Of a stretch of 64,000 bases of DNA, positions 11,166 through 49,972 are shown one piece after another. How positions within the stretch are numbered: position 1 is the first letter of the stretch; each line of letters begins with the position of its first letter. Under the pieces are notes generated by a model. That model did no database searches. It saw only the letters and a program-made list of their open reading frames with translations, and was not told the DNA's origin. A program made the position numbers and the translations under genes. The DNA is from Naegleria gruberi (Eukaryota): NCBI GenBank assembly GCA_000004985.1, contig GG738849.1; one strand, written 5' to 3'.

Positions 11166-11532
11166 GTTGTTGCTGTTGTTGTTATATATTCTTGTTATTT
11201 TTGTATTTACAAATCCTAGTGTTCGTGTGCCCTCGCTCTGTTAGAGTATTATCCACGTGATCAAAAGGTATTAATTTGTGGAGATCAATTCTAATCTCTC
11301 CAATAAGATGATGAGATAGAAACAGATGATTGAGTGCTTCCAATTTTTTATTCAAATCGATTTGCTAACATGAACGTTGGCCATGAAGGGCGGAATTGAA
11401 AGGAACCAAAAATAAAATCACACACAATTTTTTGATTGAGGGTGGCCATAATAAACTCTTTCCACAATAGATTAATAATAGAAACCAACAGCCTCTGAAC
11501 TCAATAGAAAATGCATGGAAGGAATCAAAAAA

Positions 11533-14500
11533 TTAAAAATTATCAGTGACACCCAACTTTTCCTTCCAATCAAATCCAAGACATACACTCAAATTCCTTA
11601 TCTCATCCTTTTCTTCATTGGTGAGTGGTATTGAGCTGGGGTAATCTTTCAAAGTACCCCATGAATCTCCAATTTGAACCTTTACAGGCAGTGGTACTAG
11701 AAGTTTCTTATCTGTATTCTGCATAATATTTTTTGTACAATAGATAAATGTACTGAGAGAGTCTTCTCTCACTTCAAAGAGTAGCTCATCATGAATTTGT
11801 AGTAACATGTATGCTCTTTCTTCTTTCTTATTAAAATGTCTCATAAATGAATAAATACCTAACATGACTATTTTCATAATATCAGAGGCAGAGCCTTGAG
11901 AAACAGTATTGAGAGCAGCTCTTCTAGCTGCAGCTCTCTTTGATGAATCATCAGAACAAATATCATGGATAAATCTCTTTCTTGAATATGAGGTTTCAAC
12001 ATAGTGCTTTTCCACAAGGTGATTCTCTACAAAGTCCTTATATTGCTTCAATCCTTGATATTTTTCAAAAAAATTTTGCTTGTATCTTTCAGCAGCTTCA
12101 ATTCTATCCTCACCAGGCCTCAACATAAAATCCTCATTCTCACTATTGAACATTTTACCAGAGAGAGTTTCTGAGCCCATACAATAGGAAATTCCATAAA
12201 TGATCTGCTTGACCAGACTTCTATGAGATAATGGAACTGGTTCTTCAGGTCTAAAATTCCAAAAGTTTCTAGCAATTTCCTCAAAAATATCTCTTTCTGT
12301 ATTACTGAGAATGTCTGAAAGGGTTCTATCTTGTGAGAGGTGGGCTAAAATTCTCAATTCAATATTCTTATAATCAATTGAAACCATTACATAACCATTT
12401 CTTGGGATGAAGGCGCTTCTAATACTCAGTGTGATTATGGATTTCTGAGAGAAAGGGTCCTTAATGTCGATATCATTTGGAATATTTTGAAGGTTTGGAT
12501 TCTTGACACTTAAGCGTCCAGTTGCTGAAGTGGTTTGCATTTGAGAGGCAAATATTCTATATTCTTGAGTGTCTGGGCAGTATTTGATATCATTGGGCAT
12601 GTTTTGAATGTGATGAGTCTTAATATTCAGCAAGTATCTGTATTCACTGATTTGCTTCATAATATAAGACTTATCGGGGTAGAGTTTTTTCAACTTTTCC
12701 AATATTTCCTTGTTTGTTTTCCTCTCTGTACCCTTAAGTTTTAATTTATCAAAGAGGAGTAATGCAACATGGTCATTATTGGACACATCAATCTTTTTAC
12801 CATCCAAAATTTGTAAACTGTTCAAATCTCTTGTAATTTCATCGAGTTTAGCATCTATGAGTTTCGTATTATGTTTGATCCAATGATAATTGAAACGTAT
12901 TCCATTATGTTCCATTGTGCTTAAAACTTTGGAGAAGCTCATTTCAAATTCAAACATTTGTCTCAATTCCAAATTAATAATGGATACCATAACAGCAGTC
13001 ATTATTGGCCAACATTGGCTAGCTGTCTTTACAATGACAAACTTGTCATTCTTGGGAGTAAATAGAAATGAATCAGATGGGAAATATTTCAAGTATATTT
13101 CCTCAAGAGTTTTCTCATTATCCGAATCATCTGGATGTTGTACCCAGTCTCCAATCATTGGATCAAGTACGGGATCTTTAACAATTAAGTCCCAAGCCTG
13201 TAAGAGTCTTGTTTGTTGTTTTTTAAATCCGAATGTAAGTTTGGGTTTTCTCTTGTCTTGCAGCATTCGTTTTACTATCTTGGATCTATAATCATCTAGA
13301 TGGATAAAATAGCATTTGCAAGGAATATTTGGATCGATTTTGGTTTCACATCTCTTCTCAAAAGTTAAATAATCCTCAAATACTTCATTAAAACAAATTG
13401 AGAGTCCCTTCACCGTATAAACATCCCTATTCTTAATAAAGGTGGTTGGATTGTCTTGCTTTTTCTTAATTCCAAATTCGAAACAGAATGAAAATACTTT
13501 TGAATTATTCCAACGCTCCAAAAACTCATCAAATAATTGATTATCACCAAGTTTTAGTTCTATCACAGAATCTTCCTTTTTCTTTTTGTGCTCTGCCTGA
13601 TTATCATCAAAGGCGTTACATCTCTTTTTTCCTCTCTTTTTTGGAGAGCTATTTTGGAATAGGAATGTATCTTCGTCTTGTGGCCCAAATATCCACTCTA
13701 AAGGAAGTAATTTCTCCTCTACAATTGCCTTTGCTCCTTCTACAATCAAATTAGCTTTAGTTCTACTTTCTGTTGTGTTTTGAGAGCCTTTAACAAGTAT
13801 ATTTTCGATACTTTCTGGTGTTTCATCAGCAACCTGTGCAATTGTTCTGAGACCAGCACTGAATAACAATCTTGCTCTTGATGAACCAACAAATGGAATT
13901 TGAACAAGAGGTACAAGTTCCTGTCTCACTCCAGAAACAAGTCGTTCTTTGATTTCTTTGAATGCTTCCGAGAAAAAGCTTGGTAAGGCAGCATATTTAC
14001 AAAAACTTGAGAGTACAGATGCTTTTGAGGCAGCATCTTTTTGAACATTTTGTACAGATCCTCTTGCATCTGAGTCTCCAAAATATGTCTCTGCAATATT
14101 TTTGATTGGATATTCCAGTATAATGTCATAGAGTATAAATGTTTTTCTCAATGTGTAGATAGTTTCGCTCAATTCTCGTTGATGACTACTTCTATTTCCC
14201 ACCGACAAGATGTAACCTCTCAATTCATTAATGTCTCTAATCTTGTTATTTACAAATTCTGAAAACTCTCTTCTCTTGATGGCAATATTTACAATTTTTT
14301 CAGCAACTTTTGAGAATGTATCGTTATAATCAGTATGAAATAGACTATTTTCAGAGAAGGAGGCAAGAATGTAAATCATTCCTAGATCATCTTCCAAGTA
14401 GAAATTTTTCAATTCATTCTTAATGGTTTGGTAAAACTTGAGAGAAAGATAGGGACAAATATTGGCGATTTGTGTTGCAAATCCCAATGGTTTACAATCG

Positions 14501-34213: not shown

Positions 34214-36614
34214 ATGCTTCCACAACAAGGAATGACTTCAGGTACATCTGCTTCATCCTCTATCAGTGGTACTGAGCACGTTAATTTTCAGGAAATTGTT
34301 TCATCACTCCATAATGAAAATGCTATAGAATCAGCCCTTTACAAGGATGCTTCCAATGTTATCACTGATAGATTGGAGTTTGGCATTACTGTTGATGCTA
34401 TTCTTGTTAAACCTAATGTTGAAGGAAGTAATGATACCGTTGTTGAAAAGATTTGCAATGCTGTCAATGAAAATGGTGTTTCTATGCTCAGATCAGCTCT
34501 CGGAACAACAGTCATTGATCAAGGTACTATTAGAGTTGTTATGCACAATGGTCGTGTTGAAGTTTGTGGACCAGGTAAGTTTTATTGTGGTTGTGATGAA
34601 ATTTTTAACACATACTTTTGGATATTCTTCCAATATCATGTTGTGATGATCATTTCTACCATTATAATTTACATTGAAATAATAACAGGAAGATACATGA
34701 GAATTAATCCAAGAGCTCACTGGAGTGACACCTACAATTTGGAAAATGATGTTATTGTTCACGAAACTTTGAAAATTATTCGTATAAGAAAGGGTTATTA
34801 TGGCTTGGCTAATTTGAACGGACAACCTTTAATTCTCGGAGAGGGTTTGCACGTTAGAAATACCAGATTATTCTCTTTTAAGGAAGCTAAGGAAATTAAC
34901 CAAGAAAGAATTGAACATGGTACCATTAATATTTTGAGAATTCCTCAAGGGTACTATGGTAAGGTTATTGAGAATAACATTCCTAAATTGTTGAAGGCAG
35001 GTAATTATGTCGTTGATAGTGCTCTCTTCAGTTATCATGGTTTAGTTTCAATTAACGAAACTCATATCAAGCACTCTACCATTCAAATTATCAGAATTCC
35101 AAAGAGTTCTATTGGTTTAGTCACTGTTGGAACCAAGCCTTCATTATTGCAAGAAGGATTGTATATTTTCAATGATCAAAATGTTACTTATAATGGAATG
35201 AAGGATATTACAGACTCAGTAATTAGACATCCTCCAATTACTAGATTTAGAGTTACTTTGGGTGAGTTGGCTCTCTGTTGGTACAAGAGTGTCCCTGTCT
35301 TTATTTCTGGTGAGTAGTTTTTCTTGATTGTTATGATGATTTTAACACTTTTCAATCCAGAACCTCAAGTTTATGAAGTTAACAGTACTGACTTTTTATT
35401 CGAAAAGTGTGTACCTGTGAAAACCAAGACTATTATTTTGGGTTCATCAATGAGAATTATTGTTAATGAAGGTGAAGTTTGTGTTACTTACAAACGAGGT
35501 AAACTGGATATTCTTAATCCAGGTACCTTTGTTTTCACTAATGAATTGGATCGTACATTCGAATCATACATGTCAACTAGATTAATGTCCATTCCTTTGA
35601 TTGAAGATGTTTCCAAGGAAACCTTCTTGAGATGTGACACTCGTGACTTTGTTGAAGTTGGTATTAGAGCTGCTGTTTCATTTAGAATTTCTGATCCAAA
35701 ATTGACTTTAACTATTGGTAAGTAGTAGTATTTTTGAAAACAGTTCTTATATCTTCTCAGTTGGTAATGAAGCTCAAACCATCAAATTAATTAAGGATCA
35801 AAGTATTGCTGCTTTGCAAGCCATTGTTAGATCTACTGCATTGAATCAATTGGCTCAAAACAAGACCATTCCAGCCTCTGAACTTAAAGAACAAAATACT
35901 CAAACAAGTGATCACAGTGATCCTAATGTTTCTTCAAATCCATCAGCTCCACAATTCTTTGAAAACCTTCACGATGAATTCATTTCAAAACTCCATGACA
36001 CCTTCAAGAAGAGTTATGGTATTGAAATTGATAATATCCGTATTGAAGATTTCCAAATTATAAATCAAGAATTGGCAACAAACATTTCCAAACAAGCCAT
36101 CATTACTGCTGAAACCAGTACCAAATTGGCCAACTTGGAAGCTCAAAGAGAAATTGAATTGGCTGGTCAAGAAAGATTGAATTCTATCAACTCTATCAAG
36201 GCTACTGCTGAAGCTTTCAAATTAAAGACTGAAACTGAAGCCAAGAATAATGCTACCATTATTGAAGCTGAAACTAAGGCCATTGAAATCAAGACACTTG
36301 CCAAGGCCAGAGCTGAAGCTCTCACTATTGAAGCAGAAGCTGAAGCCAAAGCTATTGAAATTAAGGCTCTTGCTGAAAAGAAGAGAGCTGAATATTTGAG
36401 TTCAACTGAATTTGGTAAACAAGAAGCTCTCTTGACAAAACACCACGACATGGTTGTTCAAGCCATGAAGAGTGTTTCTCAAGTTGTTTACCTTCCTAGT
36501 GATGCAAATATGGGTTGCTTGCCTTTGCAAATGTTTGGCATGCAAGGTGGAATTCCTAATTTCGATAGTATTACTAAGGATGCTGGCAGAAGTAATGGTA
36601 GAAAAAAAGACTAA
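34214..36614 (+). CDS. SPFH/band-7 family protein (flotillin/vacuolin-like), 4 exons, with N-terminal tandem degenerate beta-hairpin repeats
   Basis: Exons are about 34214..34574, 34688..35309, 35361..35717 and 35761..36614. Donors are GTAAGT, GTGAGT and GTAAGT, all phase 1. The C-terminus is a flotillin-like coiled coil (EAEAKAIEIKALAEKKRAEY), the core is an SPFH domain, and the N-terminus has repeats (see findings). Confidence 0.7.
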
Positions 36615-36796
36615 GACTCTAAGTAATTTGTAAATAAAATAGAAAAGATTGTAATAATTACATTTTTAATAAATATCAATCACTGCTTCCTCCATAAATC
36701 GGATAACAAAAAATCAACTGTTTCATGATTGATGTGTGACTTTTTGACTCTTCATCAAGCAAAAAACAAGACTGAAAACCAATAAGAATCAAAAAA

Positions 36797-38973
36797 ATGA
36801 TCACATCCACACTCCTCTTCTCTCTCCACATTGGAATCAGTTATTACAAACATTATTCCTTTGTGAGTGGATATAATCAAGTAATGGAAAAACACAAACA
36901 AACTTTTGTGACCGATGAAACTCTACTCACCATTCTATCACCCTATTTTCTATTGTTAATATTGGAAAATATTCTATCGAGTATATTATTGGATTTACCT
37001 ATTGTATTATTATTGGCTATTAGTTTATTAATTGGTATGTGTATTAATCTATCATTATTAAAACAGTTTAAATATATATTAACATTTTATAACAATATAT
37101 ATAATCATCAAAATATTAACATTTTACAATCTATTATCAATATATATTTGTTTTTAATATATGAAAAGTTGGAGGATTATATTATAAGAAACCATCTCCT
37201 ATTGTTAGTGTAGCGTCATCCTCATCAACATCATCCTCATTAACTATATATTCAATTGTGTCCAATCTTGTTATTGACAGTTTATTCATTTCACTTTTAT
37301 TAATTGAATCAAGTGGAAATTTCTACAAAATCCTATTAGCAATCATGTATATTATTACTGCCTTTGGACTTGTCAAGACACTTTCCTATACCATCTACTA
37401 TTCACATACTCAATTACTTGTCAAATTAGCTCAATTTTTCATTCCAATTAGAATTAATTCTGAAATTAGACAAATTGCTCATGATTTGTACAAATTTGAT
37501 TTTAATTCTTTGATTGCCTATGTAATGACTTTATTTTCTATTGTAATTATATTGTTACCTTTGGCATCTGGTGGTCAGGAATTGAAAGGAAAGTTGATTA
37601 TTTTATTTGGAACTAGTTTATTACAATTAGTTCATTTACCACAAATTCAACATTATTTACAAAAAGCAATTTCATTGGATGAATTTGTTAAATCTAAATT
37701 GACTAGTATTGTTCCTGTTGGTGGTAGTACTGAACATTCTCAACCAAAGACAAGCCAAGTAGTTTCGAATATTTCCTCCTCATCTTCTGTTAAAGAAAAG
37801 GCTAAATTATTCGAAAATAATAAGGAACAACCACAACAACAACCTATTGTTGAAAAGAAGCCAGTTATTGTCAAGAAACCAATTGAACAACCTTCAGCAA
37901 CTAGTCAACCTGCTCAACCAAAACAAGTTTCCAAATTGGCCTCAACTAGTACAACATCTTCTACTATTGAAAAGGAACAACCAACCATTGTAAAACCTTC
38001 TACTGTAGTTGCCACTGAATCTATTTCTAAGAAACCAGTTGAAAAGCCTTCAAATAATATTCCAACTAGTCAACCAGAAATTTCTAAACCAATTATTCCA
38101 AAAGAAACAATTCCACCAAAAGAAGATACCAAATTAACTATCACACCATCAGAATCTTCTACTAATGCTGCCAATGTGAGTGGTGGTGTTAAAATTTCCA
38201 AACTCAATCTCTCACAACTTTCCAATATTCCACCTTCCACTGATAATGCAACTTCTGCTGAAACTCTTTCATCTGCCAGAGATTCTTCACGTGACAGTGG
38301 TTCTCTCTCAGCTAGACGTTCAGGTTCCTTTGTAAATATCATGAAAAATGTTCAATCTCCAAGGGATTCAATGAATTCACCTCGAAATACTTCAGCACTT
38401 GATGGAGTGACAAGTCCACGTGGTACTGCTTTGTTATCACCAAGAAATAGTAGTAATTTCAGTCAGATTGCTGAGAGAATGAAACAAAAATTGAATTTGA
38501 AACCTAAAGTTGAATCAAATGGGCCAGTGGTTGAAAGTTCATCTACTCAATTGGGACAAACTCAAAAATTGCATGAATCTCCTAATACTATGGACAAATT
38601 CAAGAAGGCTAAACTGGCTCAACCTCGTAAAGAACGTACACGTGCCAATGTCAAACAATTACTCAATAACGTCCAAGAATCCAATGAAAATTTAATAGAG
38701 CTACCTAAACAAGACGATTTTGAAAAATTAGAACAAGCATCTAAAAATGAAAAGAAATTTGGACTCACCAATCCAATCTTTAGATTACCTCCTCCTCAAT
38801 CATCTATTTTACCATCTGCATCCTCAACTGTTGAAGAAAAAGAAGAAAAAAAGGTTAATCTCGATAAGGTTATTGGAAAATCAAAACAACAACAAGGAAT
38901 GGGTGGAATTGACTTACAATCTGTATTGAATGCAAGAAACAAATTAAAGAAAACAGGAGAAGAATTGAAATAA
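36797..38973 (+). CDS. Membrane protein with multi-TM N-terminus and long S/T/P-rich disordered tail ending in a WH2-like motif; probably 2 exons
   Basis: ORFs 36797..37213 and 37258..38973 are probably joined by an AT-rich intron (about 37037..37277). The exact donor is uncertain. The C-terminus GGIDLQSVLNARNKLKKT resembles a WH2 actin-binding motif. Confidence 0.4.
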
Positions 38974-39045
38974 ATATCCAATAAAACATTTCCATCAAAA
39001 ATCATTAAAATGTCATTTTGAAATCGTCAACTTTCTAGAAAAAAA

Positions 39046-42005
39046 ATGCTAACGAAACTAAAGAACTCTTTCAGAAAGAAGGGAGCATCCAATTCTACTG
39101 AAGAATCGTCTTCCTCCTCTGAAAACATTGGTAATCAGTCCATTACTAGATCATTTCACAATTTAATTCAAGACAAAACAGAAAAAACTCAAGAAGTGAA
39201 AGAAACTAAACAACGAAGAGAAAGTGAAGGATATCTATTGTTACATTTGATAGGAGCAAGTAATTTACCATCGGCTGATGCTAACGGATTGTCAGGTATG
39301 TTGTGATGAAAAAAATTGATGAATTTTAATTGATGATGAAAATTTGATGGATGACATTTAGATCCATTCTGTAGTATCAAGATTAAAAACACAGGTCTCA
39401 GTGAATCAGAGGAACAATATCAAAAAACTGAAGTAATTAAGAAAGAATTGAATCCACATTGGAATTCATTCTTTTTCTTTGATGTGATTGAATTTAATGG
39501 AACTTTTGTAGAGTTTGAGGTTTATGATTATGATAGACTTTCAAAGAATGAGTAGGTTTTTATTTACTTTGGTTGAATTTTCTAATTTTGGAAATTTTAC
39601 AAAACAATTTAAATAATTTAAAATATTTAAAAATATAAATTTAAAACAACAAGTTTATTGGGAGGATGTGCATTTAATATTAAACTATTAACACCATGTG
39701 TTCAAACAGAATTATCTATTGGATTAGATACTAAAGGAACAGTTGACTGTAACATGATGTACATTCCACAAACAACTTTTGGTTTCTTGATGAAGAAATG
39801 TATTGAAACAAAGAACATGTACATTGATAGGGATTTCCCTGCCACCACTACATCCATTTGTCATAATGAAACCTTTTTATCAAGTAAGGGAATTGACCCT
39901 TCTTCCATTAGTAAGTTTTTCACACATACACACACTTTAAAATTCTTAAAATTCTTCATAATTTCAAACGCACAGATTGGATGAGACCTAAAGAATTCTG
40001 TAAAGGATCTCTGAGACCAGAACTTTTCCTAGCAGGTGTTGAACCAGCAGATATCAGACAAGGTAAAATTGGTGATTGTTACTTTTTGGGAGCTATTGCA
40101 GTTGCAGCATTGCATCCAAAATTAATCAAATCCTTGTTTATTCCATCTGCCTATAATGAATATGGTATCTATCAGATTAAAATGTTTTATAATGGTATTT
40201 GGCAAGAGGTCATTATTGATGATTATGTTCCAGTGGTTGTCTCTTCAAAGATTGAACAAAAATCAAGAAGTAATTATGCACCACTTTTTGTAAGATCAAC
40301 TGATTTGGAAGAATTATGGGTAATTTTATTGGAAAAGGCATATGCTAAATTACATGGATCATATGAAGATATTGAAGGTGCTCATTCAATTCGTGAAGCA
40401 TTTGAACATTTAACTGGTGGTTGGTCAGATGCTATCGAATTAGCTCCATACATGAACGGTAAAAAATCAAATACTGACCTATTTAATAACATGTTGGAAT
40501 GGAAAAAGAATAGACATTTGATGGCAACTTCAACTGCTAGTGATAATGATTTTGATTTTGAGAATTATCTTGTTCCTAATGATAATGGTATAGTTCCAAA
40601 ACATGCCTATTCAATTCTAGATGTTCGTTATGTTTCAAAAGAGGAAAGTCCTGAAAATATTCCATATCAACTTGTCAAATTGAGAAATACATGGGGTAAA
40701 ACTGAGTGGAAAGGTAAATTCGCTGATGATTGGGAAGGATGGACTGATGCATTGGCTAAAAAACTCAATCAGGTTAATAGTGATGATGGTTCTTTCTGGA
40801 TGAGCATTGATGATTACGTTGAACAATTTAATTACTTGTACATTTGTCGTGTTCCAATCACTGATGGATTTATTAGAGAAATTTCAGCAATTCCAGTTGA
40901 TTTGGATATTAAAAAGATGATTAAGGAAAGAGCTAGTAATGCACACATTATTTTCGATAAGAGAGGAGGAGCATGTGAGTGGAATCAAGAACTTTATCAA
41001 AATGCAGGTGGACAAATTTATTTCAAGGAGAGTTTCTTCCAAAACCCACAATTTAGATTGACCATTGATTTACCACCATCTTTAGCGAATCAAGATGATA
41101 CAGCAAGTATTTCAGATTTTAAATCAAACATGATTCGTATCATTGTTTCTATTCGTATAGTTGACGATGAAAAGACAAAGGATGCCAAACGAAAGAAACA
41201 AACCAAACCAAATCCTCTAGGTCTATACGTTTTCAGAAATAGAAAGGCACAAAAATCTGGCAAGTATGCCTTAATGGACTTTCCAGATAATGCAGCTGAT
41301 AGAGTTGGAGAAACCAACATGAAGAAATTGAGTCGTGATGCTGTGGAAATTTATCTCCCAAGACCAAATCCAAAGAAATACGAACAGGAGAAACAAGAAG
41401 GATTGCACGATTATACCATTGTGGCAAGTCGTTGGTATCCTAATACAGAAGGTTCATTTGCTATTCAAGTTTGTTCAGATTACAAACATTTACAGTTTGA
41501 GGCAATTGATGGATCTCAATCAGCAGCTGCATTTTGTAAAAAGGTTATTAAGAGTGAGTGGAATGGAGTGGACTCATGTGGAGCTCATTGGCAAACATCA
41601 ACCTTTTCTACCAATCCAAAATTCCTTATTCAATGTAAGGAAATTCCTAACCACCCACAAGGTAGTGAAGATTCTCAATTTATTAGAAATGCTGTGAATA
41701 TTTATGTGGAATCTGAGAATGGAAAGATACCATTCTTTCCCTATGTAGTTTCATTGGTCAAGTTTAAAAAGTGGATGCAACAATCTGTACTGCAACCAAT
41801 CACTGAAGATCAATGTGTTCTATTTCCACCTAATGGAAATGAGTTCTTTACCATTCGTCATTCTTTTGATTGTGAGTTGGCCTGCAGAAGAGATAAACCA
41901 GTTTCATACTTGCTCATCTTGGGAACACCTTACAAGATGGCTGGAAAATTTACAATTGTTGTTAAGGCTGAACAAGAAATTACTATTGAACAAGTTTCAC
42001 TCTAA
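39046..42005 (+). CDS. Calpain-family cysteine protease with N-terminal C2 domain, 4 exons (908 aa)
   Basis: Exons are 39046..39295, 39362..39551, 39654..39910 and 39976..42005 (2727 nt, in frame). Donors are GTATGT, GTAGGT and GTAAGT. Exons 1-2 encode a C2 fold (LSG|DPFCSIKIKNTG...FEVYDYDRLSKND). The catalytic triad contexts are QGKIGDCYFLGAIA (Cys), VPKHAYSILDV (His) and VKLRNTWGKTEWKG (Asn). Confidence 0.8.
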
Positions 42006-42197
42006 TACAATAATTTATTAATTTACAATTAAAAAAAAATGTTAATGATTAGTACAATAGTTTGGATTTTCAGTTGGAATTTGATTTTTTATTCCTTACT
42101 GGATACTTTCTTTGTGTAGGATTGTTGCCCTCGATAATATAAGTGGAATAGTAAAAAAAGATTAGATAAGCTAATTGGAAAATATTATAAAATCCAT

Positions 42198-45100
42198 TTA
42201 TAAGAAATCAAGAGTTTCTTCTGTTGTGTGATGAGTGTGAGAATGAGAGGAATGATGGTTACGAGAGTGATCCATGAGGGAACCAACAATTTCATCATCC
42301 TTACTCATGTATGAACTGAAACGGAGATGACTCAAGAGGGCATCCTTCAATTGATTAATGTTTTGTTCTTCAAGATTGGCGCTCTTTTCCTCCTTTTCTT
42401 CCTTTTCACCACTTTCTGCCTTCTCTAAAGTGTATGATCTCAGAGTTGGGAAGAAGGTAATATATTGCTTTTGAGCCAACTCGGCAACATATTGCTCAAT
42501 ACCTGTATATTCATCTTTTGGTTTCTTTTCGAGATAGATTAAAAAGTAAACATAATTCCACATGTTGTGTTCCTTCTTAATGTGTCCTTCAAAGGTAATA
42601 CCTTCATTGGCACGAACGTCGAATCTGGACTTTTCATTAGAACATATAAAGCAGAAACCTGACTTTTCCTCATCCAATTCTTGTTTCTCTTCTCTTCTTT
42701 CACTGAAACTTTCAAGCACAATACCGAAAACAACATTGACCAAAATAATGATAATCAAGAGTGAAAAGTACAAATCAATAAAGATACGGGTGACATCAAG
42801 TGGGTATGGATCAGTAATATCTTCCCAGAAACCACCTCCACGAAGACCATAATTGACAATGGACATGAAGCATGTTAATGTTTCCTTACAAACAATAACC
42901 TTGTTGAAAACAAACTGATCATACTTGAAGGAAAACATGAGGAAGGTGTGAACAATCATGGCAAATGCAGTCAAGACACCAGTGTAGAATAACTTTTCAT
43001 AATTTTGACCAATGGCAACAATAATATCCAATAAACCATCAGGAGATAAGAAGATTATTTCAAATGTCAATATAATATATGCCAAAGGTGTTACAAATAT
43101 ACCAATCAAAATCATGCAGAAATAGATTAAAATCCACCACAAGTAAGGATCTTGAGCAGTGTACAGGGCAAACTTTCTGAAAAATTCACGATCCTTATGC
43201 AATGTATCCCACGATTGATCCTTCTCCAGTTTGAATTTCTTCTTAATGTTCAACATTAGGAAGAAGTACAAGTGTATTCCCAATAATCCAAAGGTTAACA
43301 ATAATAGTATGAGACCCAATATTTCAACCACAATACCAATAGGCATATAATTAAAACTATTTCTATACTGTATGCCATCTGGTAGGGCAATACCTGGAAC
43401 AACTACTGGACCAGAAATTGAATCAAACTGTTTAGTATATGTAGCAGTGACCAGAATATTAATGAGTACTGCAATCAAAAACACTCCAACCTTAATCTTG
43501 TACCAATTCTTTTCTATAAATTTCCATCCTCTTGCTTTCAAACTATTTGGATTGTCCATAAGACTCTTCAAGTGCATCATTTCAATTCTTGCAATTTGAT
43601 AAGTCCAATCAAAGAGGGATTTCACCTTGGTTTGTGGAGATTCTCTGTTACAGCTTTCAACAAACTCATCCTTGGTAGATTCTTGTAAATGTCTACATTG
43701 TTTGATGATTTTAAAGTGAACGATTTCTAATTGGTTATCTCTAATGACTTCTATGGTACCAACTCTTGATTCATAGTAATTGAGCCATGCCTTTTCTCCT
43801 TCATCCATTTGACTAATAGTCTTGTCTTCCGAGTCAAGATAGTCTGGAGTAATTTCATTGAAATCAAAGTCCAAATATTTAAGGAGAATGAAAATAGAAA
43901 TACCAATGTTTTGGGATTTCTTGATGCAAGTACGAACATCAGCAGGATTAGGCGTTTCTGTCTTGTTTTCAAAAGCAAGTATTTTCTTGATTTTTTCCTT
44001 ATATTCTGAATGACCGTCTGTGAATAAAATCATGAGTTTGCATAATGACTTGAAATCTAGGGACTTTTTGATATGATTCTTTGAAATTTTGTTACCACCT
44101 TCTAACATACTGGTAAGAAGAATGATAATCTTTTCAATCAGCTCTAGTTCATCCTCAACCTTCAAGTGATCAACAAATTCACCTTCCAAATCGTCATCTG
44201 GGAAGTCCATATCCTTATCTTCTGGATCAAGAGATTTTCTACCCAAAATTTCATTAATGACAGTCATTAATCTGGTTGAGGAGGCAAGTTCAATAGATGT
44301 TTCAATACAAGGACCTTGAATCATTTCATTGAGAGTATCGAATGCTTGAATAAAGTTTTCAGCACTGTCTTCGCTCAAATACTTGAACAAACCCAAAACA
44401 TAGTCAATACATTCGGAAACTAGATTTACGGAAATCTTATTGAAAGGTTGATTGTAGAGCATTTGTTGATTTGGCAAGTAGTGACCTTCACACAACAACT
44501 TTAAAAAGAGCAAGACATCCTTTGCATTGGTTGTATCATGTTGAGCATCTTGGGAATTATTTCTCTTTCTTATAGAGAAGTATTCCTTAACTTCGTAGGT
44601 TGATTGTCTGAGACGGTTCTTCATGGCCATAAAGAATGACTCATAATTGCCACTTCTGACAATAGTACCAACAACCTTTCTGGTTTCAACTGAGGTCAAC
44701 ATTTCATGAGAGAGTTTGAGAGCTGGAACAACAATTTCATAATCCGCTGTCAAAAGTTGCAAGACCAATTCTGGTATTCCATTTTCAACAGAAAATTCTG
44801 GCTTTTGATCTTTGATAGCATACTTGATGGTTTCAATAGCTCCAATAAAGGTCTCAACTAAATCTTTGGTAATACCAATGGACATGATTCTTTGTAAAAC
44901 CCCAATTAGTGTCTTGAATTGACCTTCATAGGCGTTAACAAACAATTTGGCCAGATCTGAGAAGATTGATTCTGCACTTTGAGCTTGAATTGATTCAATG
45001 AAAAGCTTGAAACGTTTGGCTACTTCGTTACCAACATCAACTGTGAGTGCCTTGTTTTGAATGGCTTGTGGTGGAACAATCTTGACAAGGGCATTTCTCT

Positions 45101-48100
45101 TTACTTGCAAGAACTTGACCTCCAATTCGTGGGAAATTCTTGTACGTTGGTGAATTTCATAAAAGCACTTATCAATATCCTTTCTATAGTTTTCATTAGC
45201 AGTATATTTGTACAATTCTATGAGGTTGGTCAAAATTTCTTCAATAATTTGCAATGTATCACTCTCGTTGGACTCTTTTGCATTGGAGAGAGTTTCTTTG
45301 GAATAATAATTAATAAAGTAATTAGTCAGGAGTGGAATAATAATTGAATAAATGTACTTTTCACTGACATAGTACTCGGCACTAATATCATCATTGTCAT
45401 CCTGAGGAAGATCATTTCTGAGTGGAGGTAATTGATACGTGACATCTCTTTCTAATTTACAAATATTTCTACCCTTGCAGTCAATATAATATTTAATTTC
45501 TTCCTTGATTCTCTTGAAGAGACGCCAAATAGTAGTATTGGCAATAACGTCATTGGATTTCTTCTCTGTATTAATGTATAATTCGTTGAGCAAGCTCATG
45601 AGAGGATCTCTTACTAGAGGAATCAACTTTTCAGATAATAAAGAAATACAATCATCAAATGACAAGATGGATTGAATTTTGACTTCTGCCTCCTTTACGG
45701 TACCCAAGGTACAATCACTGAGTAAGTATAACATGTTAATGTGATAGTTCAAAAGAGAACCTGAAACTTTGTATTCCTTGTTGAGAATTCTTTGTCTTCT
45801 CTCCTCTATACCAACATCATCGTTGAAGAGAACAATGATATCTTTTCTTTCTGTTGAAAGGTAGATGGCAATAATATCTTGGTTTCTTTGTAAATTGGAA
45901 GTACCAATTCTCGTTAAAACTCTTAAAAAGTTTAAATGCCAAGACTTTTTACCCAACTCTCCAATCTTGTCAATATATTTGTGGATAAGTTTTTCGTCCA
46001 AGTTGATGAGGAGTTGCTTATTATCTCTCACAATTTCACATAACAATTCACTGGTATCTAATTTATCGGAGAAGATACCAATCAAAAAGGCAATGTGAGA
46101 GAAGAGCTCTGATTGATTTTCAGTATTACTTCTAACAAATTCTGTCAGCACTAAAACCGCTTTTTGATAAATATTACTCTTGATGTTTTCTGGGTAAATT
46201 TTAGTGAGGCAGAGAATCATGAGTTCGTGAATTTGCAAATTTCTCAGAATGCTTTGAGCACTATGGCCATACTTTTTCACGTCGGCAAGAATTCCCTTGA
46301 TGGTATTCTTGAATTCCTTATATTCTTTAGAATCTCTACCACCAGAGAAAGTGGCATTATTGACCAGATTGTTCAACTTGTTATAATAATTGAAAATAGT
46401 TTCATAGGATTGGACTAACTTTGGTGTGGTCAATAAAACTAATCTTTCCAAGTTATTCTTCAATTCAATATCTTGCATGGATGAACGAAGTAAAATCTTG
46501 AGAGCCTTGATTGGAAGTTCATTATTTTGATACTTGAGTAAGAAGAGCATTGTTGGAATGAATTTTAAAGGAGGAAGACTTGAATTGCTATGAGTATAAT
46601 CTGTCTTATCAAATTGGAAGAATGAAATATTCTTAATCTTCATCGCTAAAGTATCCATCATTCTGGTGTTATTGTCGTCAGACTTGGCTTTGAAAAAGTC
46701 AAGAATCAAACTAATACGATAGTCAATACGCATATCAATAACATAGAGTAGAATGTCACAAATTCTATTCTTAATCTTGATAATTAGACGATTGTTTTCC
46801 GAATCTACAAAGTTCAACTCTTCGTTGGCATCAGTTGTGGCCTTTAGGGTTGCCAATAATAAGTGAATAATGTTGGAAATTTCTTCCTGATCAGTGGTAT
46901 AACTTTCGTCCAACTTTTTGTGTTCCAAATCATCACCATATGGATTGTAAGCTCTGTACAAGAAGAGTTTGTGGCAAATCTTAACTAATTGATAGCTAAA
47001 CCATTGATCTTGGTTGGTAGTGAGTTTTCTATTGGCAGAAACGAAAAAGTGTTTGTAAATAAAGTCCTTCAGTCTCTTATGTTGATATCTGTAATCTTCA
47101 AAGGTAGTAGTGGTTCTAAGTGTACTGTTACTGTTTGTCCACTTTCTAGTAAGTTTAATTGCAGGTACTTGTTCAATACCAACAGCATCAACATACAAAT
47201 ATTCCATCAAATTGGAAAAAGCAGAACGAATACTCAGAGGAGCAGTTGCATCTTCAATACATTTCAATACCAAATCGTATGGGAAAATTCTTTGAACAAA
47301 GGGAATAGCCATTGTATTCTTACCAGAACACAATGAGGCGAAAAATCTGATTGAGCTTATCATAAATTCGAAATATTCAGTCTCACAAAAGTGTTTAAGT
47401 GATTTGGTTTCACCTGTTGAAGGGATATCCACAATAGGTTTCCCCTCCTCAATTCTTGGTACAATGAAAAGTCTTGGATGTTTTTGGATGGCATCAGATA
47501 AAAGTTCTACCAATCTGTTTTGATTCTTTTGGATTGGTCTTTCCTCACATTTACATAAAATTGTCAAAAGTTTGAGGTAGAGATCCTTCTTTCTGGTATT
47601 TTCAACTAAAAGATTGAAAAATCCCTCAATTTGACTCGATGAAATACTGTCCAATAGCTCCATATTATCCTTAATCATACCAATCAAAAGTTCTGTATTG
47701 GTCTGACCAATAGAGTTGGCAAAATCTTTGGAAGAGTTTAGGACAACTTCTGAAGATTCTCCCAAGATGTGATTTTGTAATTCGTGGAAATACTTTTCAA
47801 AGACGTATAAACTGTTTGGTACGTGAAGAAGTGTAATTTGTCTGATAGATCTGAAACTATATTGATAAAGTTGATCCCATTTGTCATCCTTGCCAAATAT
47901 TTCACCAGAATCCTTGATAACTTGCATAATAGTGTCAATGAGACCAATATCTCTGAATGCAGATTGCCTCTCAGGATATGGAATACCTTCTCTTTTCATT
48001 ACATCTTGTTGAGTACTTTCAGTACAAAATCTGATAATGTGACGTAACATTTCTAAAACAGATTCAATGTCAACACGTTGTGGTTGTTGAATGGATGTTT

Positions 48101-49972
48101 CCTTTTTCATCTTTCTAAAGTTACTCACAATTCTAAAAATTTGATAAACAATAGTAAAGTCCTTCAATTCCTTCTCTGAAGCTAAAAAGATAGAAAAAAC
48201 ATCTGTTTCCTTTTTTCTATAATCAAAAGTCAAATCTATAAACATGGTATTATCATTTACATTGAACATTTGTGGAGCAAGAGAGCTACGTCTATTTGAT
48301 ACAGAGTCTTTTCTGAAAAGACTTCCACGACCACTTCCAGTATTATTCGAATCATTCTTTGAAGATCTTTCTGCTGCGTGAAGCCATGTGTCAGTTCTCA
48401 AGTGACGAATTCTGACAAGATTTTTTCTTTCAACAGGTTGACCATATCCAACGGCCTCTGATGCACCAACTTCAGGTGAGTGCAATGTGAAGAGAGTATC
48501 GTCGTTGGCCTCTTTGATTAGACCAGGTCTAAGAACTTGTTTTAAGGTTTTCTTAATTTTCAACCAACCACGTGCTGTTTGAGAACCATCATTAGCATCT
48601 GAAACTTCAGTCTTTTGAATACATAGATATTGTCCTGAAGGCAAGTGTTTTAACCTGAAAGGCACACTATATCTGACGAAACCGCCTTTGAATTTATCCA
48701 CATTTTCAATCTCGAATAAAGCGTTCACAGATGAGAGAGCATATTTCTCAGTAAATAATTTTACAAACTCCTTTTGTTGGAATAAATACCCTTCAGCATC
48801 CTTGTGAAACAATCTGATAACATCTCCAGTTTTTAAATAAGCCTTTGCTGAATAGACTGAATAGGGTGTATACAGATTAATTCTCCAAACATTTGATGAA
48901 TTAGATGCTGTAGCATTCACTTCATTTCTATTATCTCTATTCACTAAAGGTTTGTTATAAACCACTTGTGAAAAGTGGAGAGTATGTTTTGATTTTTCAT
49001 TGAATAGAACAATCTTATCGGACAATCTTACAGGTTCATTCTCTTGTCTAAATTTGAAATGTGGCATAATTTGAAAGAATGTTCTACTTCCACTAGTTGC
49101 CAATGAAATTGCAATACAAGCCTTTTCTAATTCTGCATTGGTACGAAGAACTGTTAAATATTCTTGTGATTGTACGTGTAATAATTGAATTCTAGCACCG
49201 TATGATACTACTTTTCCGAGAGCCTATAATGTATTCCGACAAATCATAGAATGTTATATCAAATATGAAATCCAAAAAAAAATTATTTATCCAATTAATC
49301 AAATAATTAATAGAATGAACATTTTTTTTCAATTGTTTTTTTAAAAATTATTAATTTGTGTAACATTCTACTAATACATACCTTTTGGGCTTCTATTATA
49401 TTTTGTTGTTCTTCTCTTTCCATTTTGATTTTCAACTTTTTAGATTCTACACTCTTCTCTGGATGTTTATTCGAGTTGATCATTGAGAGAATATTCTTTC
49501 CGTACTTCATGGATGTTCTTCTGGAGGCAAATAGAGCCTCTCCCAAGGCACTTGTTGAAGACATCTTGTTATCCACAAATTCATTATATCTTTTGAGAGC
49601 CGAATAGGAACCTCCCTTCATGACTACGAATAAACTTTCCTTTGAACTTGCTGATTGACTATCAATTTCTGATGATGAAGTGAATGGAGTTGCTCCACAT
49701 CGAATTGGATTTAATCCTCTAATTGAAAGATAGGATTTTTCATCTTCGTATACTAGAGAAATAACATCTCCATATCGAAGGAATAAATTTTGATTAGAAT
49801 TTGATGAGGATGATGTAATAGATGACGAAACGATGGCAATTGATGAATTACTAGAATTTGTTGTTGTTGTATTGGAATTGTTGGAGAGGAGAAGAGACTG
49901 CTGATTGCTAGAGTTGGCTGCCTGCAATGCCACAGACATCAACATTGAATTGTTCGCTGAAAGTGCAGACAT
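42198..49972 (-). CDS. ITPR: Inositol 1,4,5-trisphosphate receptor / ryanodine receptor-like Ca2+ release channel, 2 exons (2538 aa)
   Basis: Exons are 49972..49382 and 49223..42198; the intron runs 49224..49381 (GTATGT..TTATAG). The N-terminus has IP3R suppressor/MIR-like sequence (LFLRYGDVISLVYEDEKSYLSIRG, VVSYGARIQLLHVQSQEYLTV). Central RIH/helical regions follow. The C-terminus has 6 TM helices and a pore loop (LRGGGFWEDITDP) followed by ...FCFICS. Confidence 0.9.

What the first reader, a model, noticed from the sequence alone, without database searches (positions are those of the whole stretch)
39046..42005. Calpain protease carrying an N-terminal C2 domain
Four exons in consistent phase (2727 nt) join a canonical C2 beta-sandwich (DPFCSIKIKNTG ... 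FEVYDYDRLSKND) directly to a calpain catalytic core with intact Cys/His/Asn contexts (GDCYFLGA, HAYSIL, RNTWG). Classical calpains place C2-like domain III after the protease, and the TRA-3/CAPN5 type has a C-terminal C2. An N-terminal Ca2+/lipid-binding C2 is unusual and suggests membrane-recruited activation. The C-terminal ~350 aa after the protease core is not obviously domain III.
Basis: partly seen in the sequence, partly recalled or inferred. Interest (0 to 1): 0.5.

Follow-up and report, generated by a model that had tools for sequence, protein, structure and literature searches.

The report
Known Naegleria calpain with N-terminal C2

Summary
Exons 39046..39295, 39362..39551, 39654..39910 and 39976..42005 (+) splice through three GT..AG introns into a 908-aa protein. 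Pfam finds C2 (aa 62-158, 5.5e-21), Peptidase_C2 (203-524, 2e-78) and Calpain_III (567-731, 2.2e-11).

The protein is 100% identical over its full length to Naegleria gruberi XP_002681712.1 / D2V2W6 / NAEGRDRAFT_63142. Zhao et al. 2012 (PMC3563603, Table S1) already list that accession as "C2-CysPc-C2L, 908 aa, C,H,N".

The C2-protease fusion is not an annotation artefact:
- Exon 3 alone encodes both the last C2 strands and the start of the calpain region.
- All three intron sites and phases recur in N. lovaniensis.
- A metagenomic relative shows the same four coding blocks in the same order.
- The N-terminal C2 recurs in Willaertia, Acrasis and one further assembly.

All six synaptotagmin-type Ca2+ ligands of the C2 domain and the Cys/His/Asn triad are intact. 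Ca2+-triggered membrane recruitment is therefore plausible, but it is inferred, not shown.

Verdict: already known; low interest.

The parts
39046..42005 (+). Whole gene, ATG to TAA: four exons and three introns, encoding the 908-aa protein NAEGRDRAFT_63142 / XP_002681712.1
   Evidence: Splice and translate. 100% identity over 100% of the length to the N. gruberi predicted protein.
39046..39295 (+). Exon 1 (aa 1-83, ends in phase 1): disordered Ser-rich N-terminus, then C2 strand 1 and Ca2+ loop 1 up to ..ADANGLS
   Evidence: AF2 pLDDT is below 50 for aa 1-57.
39296..39361 (+). Intron 1 (66 nt, GT..AG); gives an in-frame stop if retained. Same site and phase in N. lovaniensis
39362..39551 (+). 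Exon 2 (aa 84-146): the middle of the C2 domain, from DPFCSIKI to YDYDRLSKN
39552..39653 (+). Intron 2 (102 nt, GT..AG); gives an in-frame stop if retained. Same site and phase in N. lovaniensis
39654..39910 (+). Exon 3 (aa 147-232): a single open exon that holds the last C2 strands (DLLGGCAFNIKLL...) and the first part of the calpain region (IPQTTFGFLMKKCIETKNMYIDRDFP...). It physically links the two domains
   Evidence: The C2 hit runs to aa 158 and the Peptidase_C2 hit starts at aa 203. The calpain-3 alignment starts at aa 184.
39911..39975 (+). Intron 3 (65 nt, GT..AG); causes a frameshift and stop if retained. Same site and phase in N. lovaniensis
39976..42005 (+). Exon 4 (aa 233-908 plus the stop at 42003..42005): the rest of CysPc and both beta-sandwich domains
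39229..39687 (+). C2 domain (aa 62-158, interrupted by introns 1 and 2). Ca2+ ligand positions are D78, D84, D139, D141, S144 and D147
   Evidence: Pfam PF00168, 5.5e-21. Alignment to synaptotagmin-1 C2A and C2B. Foldseek match to E-Syt1 C2A, target-normalised TM 0.76.
39820..40850 (+). Calpain catalytic core CysPc (aa 203-524, interrupted by intron 3). Triad codons: Cys267 at 40077..40079, His442 at 40602..40604, Asn470 at 40686..40688
   Evidence: Pfam PF00648, 2e-78. PDB alignments. Foldseek target-normalised TM about 0.9 to calpain cores.
40977..41471 (+). First calpain-type beta-sandwich (domain III / C2L / CBSW), aa 567-731
   Evidence: Pfam PF01067, 2.2e-11, 44.6 bits against a cut-off of 21. 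The m-calpain match 3bow_A extends over 575 alignment columns.
41511..42002 (+). Second calpain-type beta-sandwich, aa 745-908. Pfam does not call it at significance

Best explanation
This is the annotated Naegleria gruberi gene NAEGRDRAFT_63142. It encodes a soluble, non-classical calpain with the layout: disordered N-terminus, C2, CysPc, CBSW, CBSW. Shown here: the gene structure, the four domains, the intact Cys267/His442/Asn470 triad, and all six synaptotagmin-type Ca2+-ligand positions of the C2 domain. Also shown: five of the six side-chain Ca2+ ligands of the protease core are kept. The Arg104/Glu333 positions of mu-calpain are Pro256 and Ser505 here. No transmembrane segment or EF-hand was found. 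The architecture is conserved in Heterolobosea. Inferred: a rise in cytosolic Ca2+ loads the C2 loops and docks the enzyme on acidic phospholipid membranes, as in synaptotagmin and PKC C2 domains and as reported for the C-terminal C2 of CAPN5. The same Ca2+ rise fills the two core sites and aligns the catalytic cleft, giving limited proteolysis of membrane-proximal substrates. In this reading the C2 takes the Ca2+/membrane-sensing role that penta-EF-hand domains have in classical calpains. I put the gene and domain identity at about 0.95, and the Ca2+-dependent membrane-recruitment mechanism at about 0.5-0.6.
Against: No transcript, protein or biochemical data were available here. Both positions that I recall as the Arg104-Glu333 salt-bridge pair of classical calpains are replaced (Pro256, Ser505), so Ca2+ activation of the core may work differently or be weaker. 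The Willaertia and Acrasis relatives have lost the catalytic Cys (FDN and GDA in place of GDC) and most C2 aspartates. In those lineages the architecture therefore persists without protease chemistry or Ca2+ binding, which hints at a scaffold role. Conserved aspartates do not prove lipid binding.
Confidence: 0.75

Rival explanations
1. The C2 domain is not a Ca2+-dependent membrane anchor. It would serve instead as a protein-protein interaction, substrate-recruiting or autoinhibitory module, and the enzyme would work in the cytosol.
For: Orthologues in Willaertia (P0006) and Acrasis (P0008) keep the N-terminal C2 fold but have lost most or all loop aspartates. The domain is therefore retained there for something other than Ca2+ binding. 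Many C2 domains are known to be Ca2+-independent interaction modules (general knowledge).
Against: In N. gruberi, N. lovaniensis and the L002 relative, the loop motifs ADANG/ADVNG..SDPF and YDYDRLSKN(D/E) are conserved with synaptotagmin spacing. That pattern argues for selection on Ca2+ binding in Naegleria.
Confidence: 0.2
2. The model is a fusion artefact: exons 1-2 belong to a separate upstream C2 gene, and the calpain starts downstream.
For: Only that no transcript data were examined here. Prokaryote-style gene callers on metagenome contigs do start the ORF at exon 4 (P0003 begins MRPKEF...).
Against: Exon 3 is one uninterrupted open exon containing both the C2 C-terminal strands and the calpain N-terminal region. 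Splitting the gene would leave a truncated C2. The upstream gene ends with TAA at 38971..38973, and an in-frame TGA lies at 39019. The same layout and intron sites recur in N. lovaniensis, and L002 has the same coding blocks in order. C2 and CysPc lie in one predicted protein in Willaertia and Acrasis.
Confidence: 0.02
3. The N. gruberi protein is a catalytically dead scaffold (pseudoprotease), like CAPN6.
For: Two related heterolobosean proteins lack the catalytic Cys.
Against: N. gruberi keeps Cys267, His442, Asn470, Trp472 and the conserved Gln261 context. Zhao et al. score it C,H,N.
Confidence: 0.03

Closest known systems
N. gruberi XP_002681712.1 / UniProt D2V2W6, listed as calpain type 'C2-CysPc-C2L' in Zhao et al. 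2012, BMC Evol Biol 12:193 (PMC3563603, Additional file 1)
   Same: It is the same protein: 908 aa, 100% identical, with the C,H,N active site and the N-terminal C2 noted.
CAPN5 / C. elegans TRA-3 (CysPc-CBSW-C2)
   Same: A non-classical calpain without PEF domains that combines CysPc, a CBSW and a true C2 domain. The CAPN5 C2 is reported to contribute to membrane localisation and activation (Bondada et al. 2021, cited in PMC13413365 and PMC10762896).
   Different: The C2 is C-terminal in CAPN5/TRA-3 and N-terminal here. This protein has two CBSW domains.
CAPN7 / PalB / Rim13 group (MIT-MIT-CysPc-CBSW-CBSW) and CAPN10 (CysPc-C2L-C2L)
   Different: No MIT domain was detected; a C2 occupies the N-terminus. 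Phylogenetic affinity was not tested.
[quoted passage not shown]
   Same: A C2 domain lies N-terminal to CysPc.
   Different: Those proteins have 20 or more transmembrane segments between C2 and CysPc and often lack triad residues. Here only ~45 residues separate the Pfam C2 and CysPc matches, and no hydrophobic segment was found.
Euglenozoan DUF1935-CysPc-C2 calpains (P0014, P0015, P0022, P0032 from Diplonema, P0233)
   Same: These are the next-closest CysPc relatives that also carry a synaptotagmin-like C2. By my own taxonomic knowledge (not checked here), Euglenozoa and Heterolobosea both belong to Discoba.
   Different: The C2 is at the C-terminus (aa ~660-840), DUF1935 is at the N-terminus, and Pfam detects no CBSW.
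Classical calpains (CAPN1/2/3: anchor helix-CysPc-CBSW-PEF)
   Same: The CysPc fold (target-normalised TM ~0.9), the triad, most core Ca2+ ligands and domain III.
   Different: No PEF/EF-hand domain, and the Arg104/Glu333 pair is absent. The extra N-terminal C2 and the second CBSW are additional. Small-subunit pairing was not tested.

Membership tests
Calpain family (MEROPS C2, Pfam PF00648 Peptidase_C2 / CysPc) | Full-length CysPc (PC1+PC2) domain | tested here: met
   Pfam 2e-78, profile positions 1-297 of 297. phmmer to calpain-3, -8 and -1 cores at 1e-39 to 1e-45. Foldseek target-normalised TM 0.85-0.91.
Calpain family (MEROPS C2, Pfam PF00648 Peptidase_C2 / CysPc) | Catalytic triad Cys/His/Asn | tested here: met
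   Cys267 (GDCYF), His442 (KHAYS) and Asn470 (RNTWG) align to the corresponding residues of calpain-1 and calpain-3.
Calpain family (MEROPS C2, Pfam PF00648 Peptidase_C2 / CysPc) | Two Ca2+ sites in the protease core (mu-calpain V99, G101, D106, E185; E302, D309, M329, D331, E333) | tested here: inconclusive
   D258, E345, E476, D483, D503 and G253 are conserved. E333 is Ser505, and R104 is Pro256 (alignment; residue list; residues). Binding itself was not testable.
Calpain family (MEROPS C2, Pfam PF00648 Peptidase_C2 / CysPc) | Ca2+-dependent proteolytic activity | not testable with these tools
   Needs an enzyme assay.
Classical calpains | C-terminal penta-EF-hand domain | tested here: not met
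   No EF-hand family among the Pfam hits at E<=1. The C-terminus is a beta-sandwich.
C2 domain (Pfam PF00168), synaptotagmin/PKC-like | C2 beta-sandwich detected by profile and by fold | tested here: met
   75.2 bits against a cut-off of 22. phmmer to Syt1, Syt3 and Syt7 at 1e-22. Foldseek hits to C2 structures.
C2 domain (Pfam PF00168), synaptotagmin/PKC-like | Loop 1 and loop 3 acidic Ca2+ ligands (Syt1 D172, D178, D230, D232, S235, D238; numbering from my own knowledge) | tested here: met
   D78, D84, D139, D141, S144 and D147 align column for column with Syt1 C2A and C2B.
C2 domain (Pfam PF00168), synaptotagmin/PKC-like | Ca2+-dependent phospholipid binding | not testable with these tools
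   Needs a liposome-binding assay.
Calpain domain III / CBSW (Pfam PF01067) | Domain III immediately after CysPc | tested here: met
   aa 567-731, E 2.2e-11.
Calpain domain III / CBSW (Pfam PF01067) | Second, tandem CBSW (as in CAPN7 and CAPN10) | tested here: met
CAPN7/PalB subfamily | N-terminal MIT domain(s) | tested here: not met
   No MIT hit. The N-terminus is a disordered stretch plus C2.
CAPN5/TRA-3 subfamily | C2 domain at the C-terminus, after the CBSW | tested here: not met
   The C2 is at aa 62-158, N-terminal to CysPc.
Membrane-anchored calpains type 3/4 (C2-MEM-Linker-CysPc...) | Multi-pass transmembrane domain between C2 and CysPc | tested here: not met
   Only ~45 residues lie between the C2 and CysPc matches. 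The highest 19-residue Kyte-Doolittle mean is 1.53, and it falls in the active-site helix.

The most novel reading that the evidence does not exclude
The N-terminal C2 may define a Heterolobosea-specific clade of soluble calpains in which a synaptotagmin-type C2 replaces PEF or MIT domains as the Ca2+/membrane sensor. Proteolysis would then need both Ca2+ and acidic lipid. Some lineages (Willaertia, Acrasis) would have converted the same scaffold into Ca2+-blind pseudoproteases. A more speculative add-on is that the enzyme acts downstream of the IP3-receptor-type channel encoded tail-to-tail next to it.
Probability: 0.35. Interest if true: 0.3.

Novelty: already known. Interest (0 to 1): 0.12.

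Why it matters
It matters little beyond confirming the annotation. The gene model is in GenBank, and its C2-CysPc-C2L architecture has been in the literature since 2012. Three small additions come from this work:
- The C-terminus contains a second calpain-type beta-sandwich, so the layout is C2-CysPc-CBSW-CBSW.
- The N-terminal C2 is conserved, with shared intron positions, across several heteroloboseans, whereas euglenozoan relatives carry the C2 at the C-terminus.
- Naegleria keeps every C2 Ca2+ ligand and the catalytic triad, while Willaertia and Acrasis relatives have lost them.

If the C2 were shown to drive Ca2+-dependent membrane docking, this would be a tidy protist counterpart to CAPN5. 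It would not change how calpains are understood.

Tried and rejected
1. The exhaustive representative search with aa 58-300 was meant to count proteins with a collinear N-terminal C2 and CysPc. The top 150 were swamped by multi-C2 proteins whose repeats add up in score. Only P0006, P0005 and P0008 (Willaertia, Acrasis and one unidentified assembly) matched both parts in one stretch. The search therefore gives no evidence for this layout outside Heterolobosea, but it is not exhaustive.

3. A full-text search for the accession numbers found no paper. The listing is only in a supplement. Rawlings 2015 (PMC4631099) mentions the Naegleria TPR-calpains but not this one in its text.

4. A term search in the CAPN5 structure paper for Ca2+-site residues found nothing. 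PMC4057710 Table 3 was used instead.

5. Comparing this C2 with the C-terminal C2 of a euglenozoan calpain gave 40% identity over 67 aa. That is no better than generic C2 similarity, so common versus independent acquisition cannot be decided.

6. The tRNA scan of the window found nothing. The tandem-repeat scan of 36000..45000 found nothing within the gene.

7. The fusion-artefact hypothesis was rejected (see rival explanations).

Full report
**What is in the sequence**

The window is AT-rich (about 33% GC) and carries short spliceosomal introns. Joining 39046..39295, 39362..39551, 39654..39910 and 39976..42005 on the + strand gives a 2727-nt CDS and a 908-aa protein. The three introns are GT..AG and 66, 102 and 65 nt long. 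Retaining any one of them gives an early in-frame stop.

The ATG at 39046 is preceded by an in-frame TGA at 39019. The upstream + strand ORF ends with TAA at 38971..38973.

**Domains**

| Domain | Residues | Evidence |
|---|---|---|
| C2 | 62-158 | Pfam 5.5e-21, 75 bits |
| Peptidase_C2 | 203-524 | Pfam 2e-78, whole profile |
| Calpain_III | 567-731 | Pfam 2.2e-11, 44.6 bits vs cut-off 21 |

The full-length model has pLDDT 82 and pTM 0.75, with aa 1-57 disordered. It matches m-calpain over 575 alignment columns (3bow_A, E 8e-31) and calpain cores at target-normalised TM about 0.9. Its N-terminal sandwich matches C2 domains such as E-Syt1 C2A. No 19-residue window is hydrophobic enough for a membrane helix. 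The architecture is: disordered tail, C2, CysPc, CBSW, CBSW.

**One gene, not two**

No transcript data are available through these tools, but four lines of sequence evidence argue against a split.

- Exon 3 (aa 147-232) is one open exon. It encodes both the last C2 strands and the start of the calpain region, which already aligns to calpain-3 from aa 184.
- The N. lovaniensis orthologue (P0002, locus L001) has five introns. Three lie at exactly the same sites and phases as the three here: NGLS|DPF in phase 1, SKN|DLLGG in phase 2, and ..I/V|xWMRPK in phase 1.
- A metagenomic contig (L002) carrying a third Naegleria-like orthologue encodes the same four coding blocks in order. They include ADANG / DPFCVIKIKN...YDYDRLSKNE upstream of the ORF that a prokaryote-style caller had started at MRPKEF.
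- Contig L003 likewise has C2 exons upstream of P0005. The annotated Willaertia magna and Acrasis kona proteins have C2, then CysPc, then Calpain_III in one polypeptide.

**Identity and prior knowledge**

The protein is 100% identical over its full length to Naegleria gruberi XP_002681712.1 / EFC48968.1 / UniProt D2V2W6 / NAEGRDRAFT_63142. Zhao et al. 2012 (PMC3563603) list exactly this accession in Additional file 1 as "C2-CysPc-C2L, 908 aa, active sites C,H,N". In that table it is the only C2-CysPc-C2L entry.

N-terminal C2 domains are also described in membrane-anchored calpains of oomycetes and brown algae. Those have the layout C2-MEM-Linker-CysPc and 20 or more transmembrane helices. The finding is already known. 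What is added here is the second CBSW and the taxonomic spread.

**Residues that bear on mechanism**

C2 domain: D78, D84, D139, D141, S144 and D147 align column for column with the loop 1 and loop 3 Ca2+ ligands of synaptotagmin-1 C2A and C2B (lpaLDmggtSDpy ... vyDfDrfSkhD, residues checked). The Syt1 numbering D172, D178, D230, D232, S235, D238 is from my own knowledge.

Protease core: the triad is Cys267, His442 and Asn470. I used the mu-calpain Ca2+-site list in PMC4057710 Table 3 (site 1: V99, G101, D106, E185; site 2: E302, D309, M329, D331, E333). I mapped it through the alignment to 1tl9.

| mu-calpain position | Here | Status |
|---|---|---|
| D106 | D258 | kept |
| E185 | E345 | kept |
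| E302 | E476 | kept |
| D309 | D483 | kept |
| D331 | D503 | kept |
| E333 | Ser505 | replaced |
| Arg104 | Pro256 | replaced |

I recall Arg104 and Glu333 as the two partners of the inter-domain salt bridge that couples the two Ca2+ sites in classical calpains. Both are missing here, so the core probably still binds Ca2+ but may couple the sites differently.

**Comparative picture**

N. lovaniensis and the L002 relative keep the loop 1 and loop 3 acidic motifs (the last acidic position in L002 reads E rather than D in the tblastn alignment). N. lovaniensis also keeps GDCYF.

Willaertia (FDN in place of GDC, loop aspartates gone) and Acrasis (GDA, loop 3 gone) look like pseudoproteases built on the same scaffold.

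The next-closest C2-bearing relatives are euglenozoan DUF1935-CysPc-C2 proteins, with the C2 at the C-terminus. A direct comparison of the two C2 domains gave 40% identity over 67 aa. That is no better than generic C2 similarity, so it does not settle single versus double acquisition.

An exhaustive search designed to find collinear C2-CysPc proteins was dominated by multi-C2 proteins. It recovered only the heterolobosean-like proteins P0005, P0006 and P0008.

**Most likely mechanism**

This part is inferred, at about 0.5-0.6. A Ca2+ rise loads the C2 loops, which dock on acidic phospholipid. The same rise fills the core sites and aligns the cleft. The enzyme then performs limited proteolysis at the membrane.

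The arrangement works like CAPN5/TRA-3, where the C2 contributes to membrane localisation (Bondada et al. 2021, as cited), with the module at the opposite end. The main rival (about 0.2) is that the C2 is a Ca2+-independent interaction or autoinhibitory module. The degenerate C2 domains of Willaertia and Acrasis suggest this. A fusion artefact (0.02) and a dead scaffold in N. gruberi (0.03) are effectively excluded.

**Verdict**

This is a correct and careful reading of a real gene. The gene is annotated and its architecture is published. Novelty: already known. Interest: low.

Noticed in passing
window 42198..49103 (-): A single 2301-aa ORF lies tail-to-tail with the calpain gene, about 190 nt from its stop. 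It has Ins145_P3_rec, MIR, RYDR_ITPR and RIH_assoc domains, so it is an IP3-receptor/ryanodine-receptor-type Ca2+-release channel homologue. A Ca2+ channel next to a Ca2+-dependent C2-calpain is probably coincidence. In N. lovaniensis the two genes are in the same order, but three other genes lie between them.
   Followed up: partly
L001 16563..20450 (+) (N. lovaniensis PYSW02000004.1, between the calpain orthologue and the IP3R homologue): A 1248-aa product has OrfB_IS605 (weak) and Cas12f1-like_TNB hits, so it is a TnpB/Fanzor-like gene. This gene and its two neighbours there (an ARD/cupin gene and a 250-aa unknown) have no counterpart in the ~190-nt gap at the corresponding N. gruberi position.
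   Followed up: no
P0006 (Willaertia magna) and P0008 (Acrasis kona), alignment A1: The closest annotated non-Naegleria relatives keep the C2-CysPc-CBSW layout. Their catalytic Cys is replaced (FDN and GDA in place of GDC), and most C2 Ca2+-ligand aspartates are lost. They are likely pseudoproteases.
   Followed up: partly
window 37258..38973 (+): The upstream ORF of 571 aa (listed from a GTG, likely part of a larger multi-exon gene) has no Pfam hit and is low-complexity and Ser/Lys-rich. It ends 72 nt before the calpain ATG and lies in the same reading frame, separated by TAA at 38971 and TGA at 39019. In N. lovaniensis the upstream neighbour is a TPR protein.
   Followed up: no
window 40627..40666 region (aa ~450-462) and aa 525-566: Naegleria-specific insertions relative to other heteroloboseans: SKEESPENIPY in PC2, and a ~35-aa low-confidence linker between CysPc and the first CBSW (DGFIREISAIPVDLDIKKMIKERASNAHIIFDKRGG), with pLDDT about 56-60.
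   Followed up: no
L001 10478..10535 and 11467..11604: The N. lovaniensis orthologue has two extra introns, one inside the C2 at KKTL|DPRW and one in CysPc at EKAYAKLH. N. gruberi lacks both, so introns were gained or lost within the genus.
   Followed up: no
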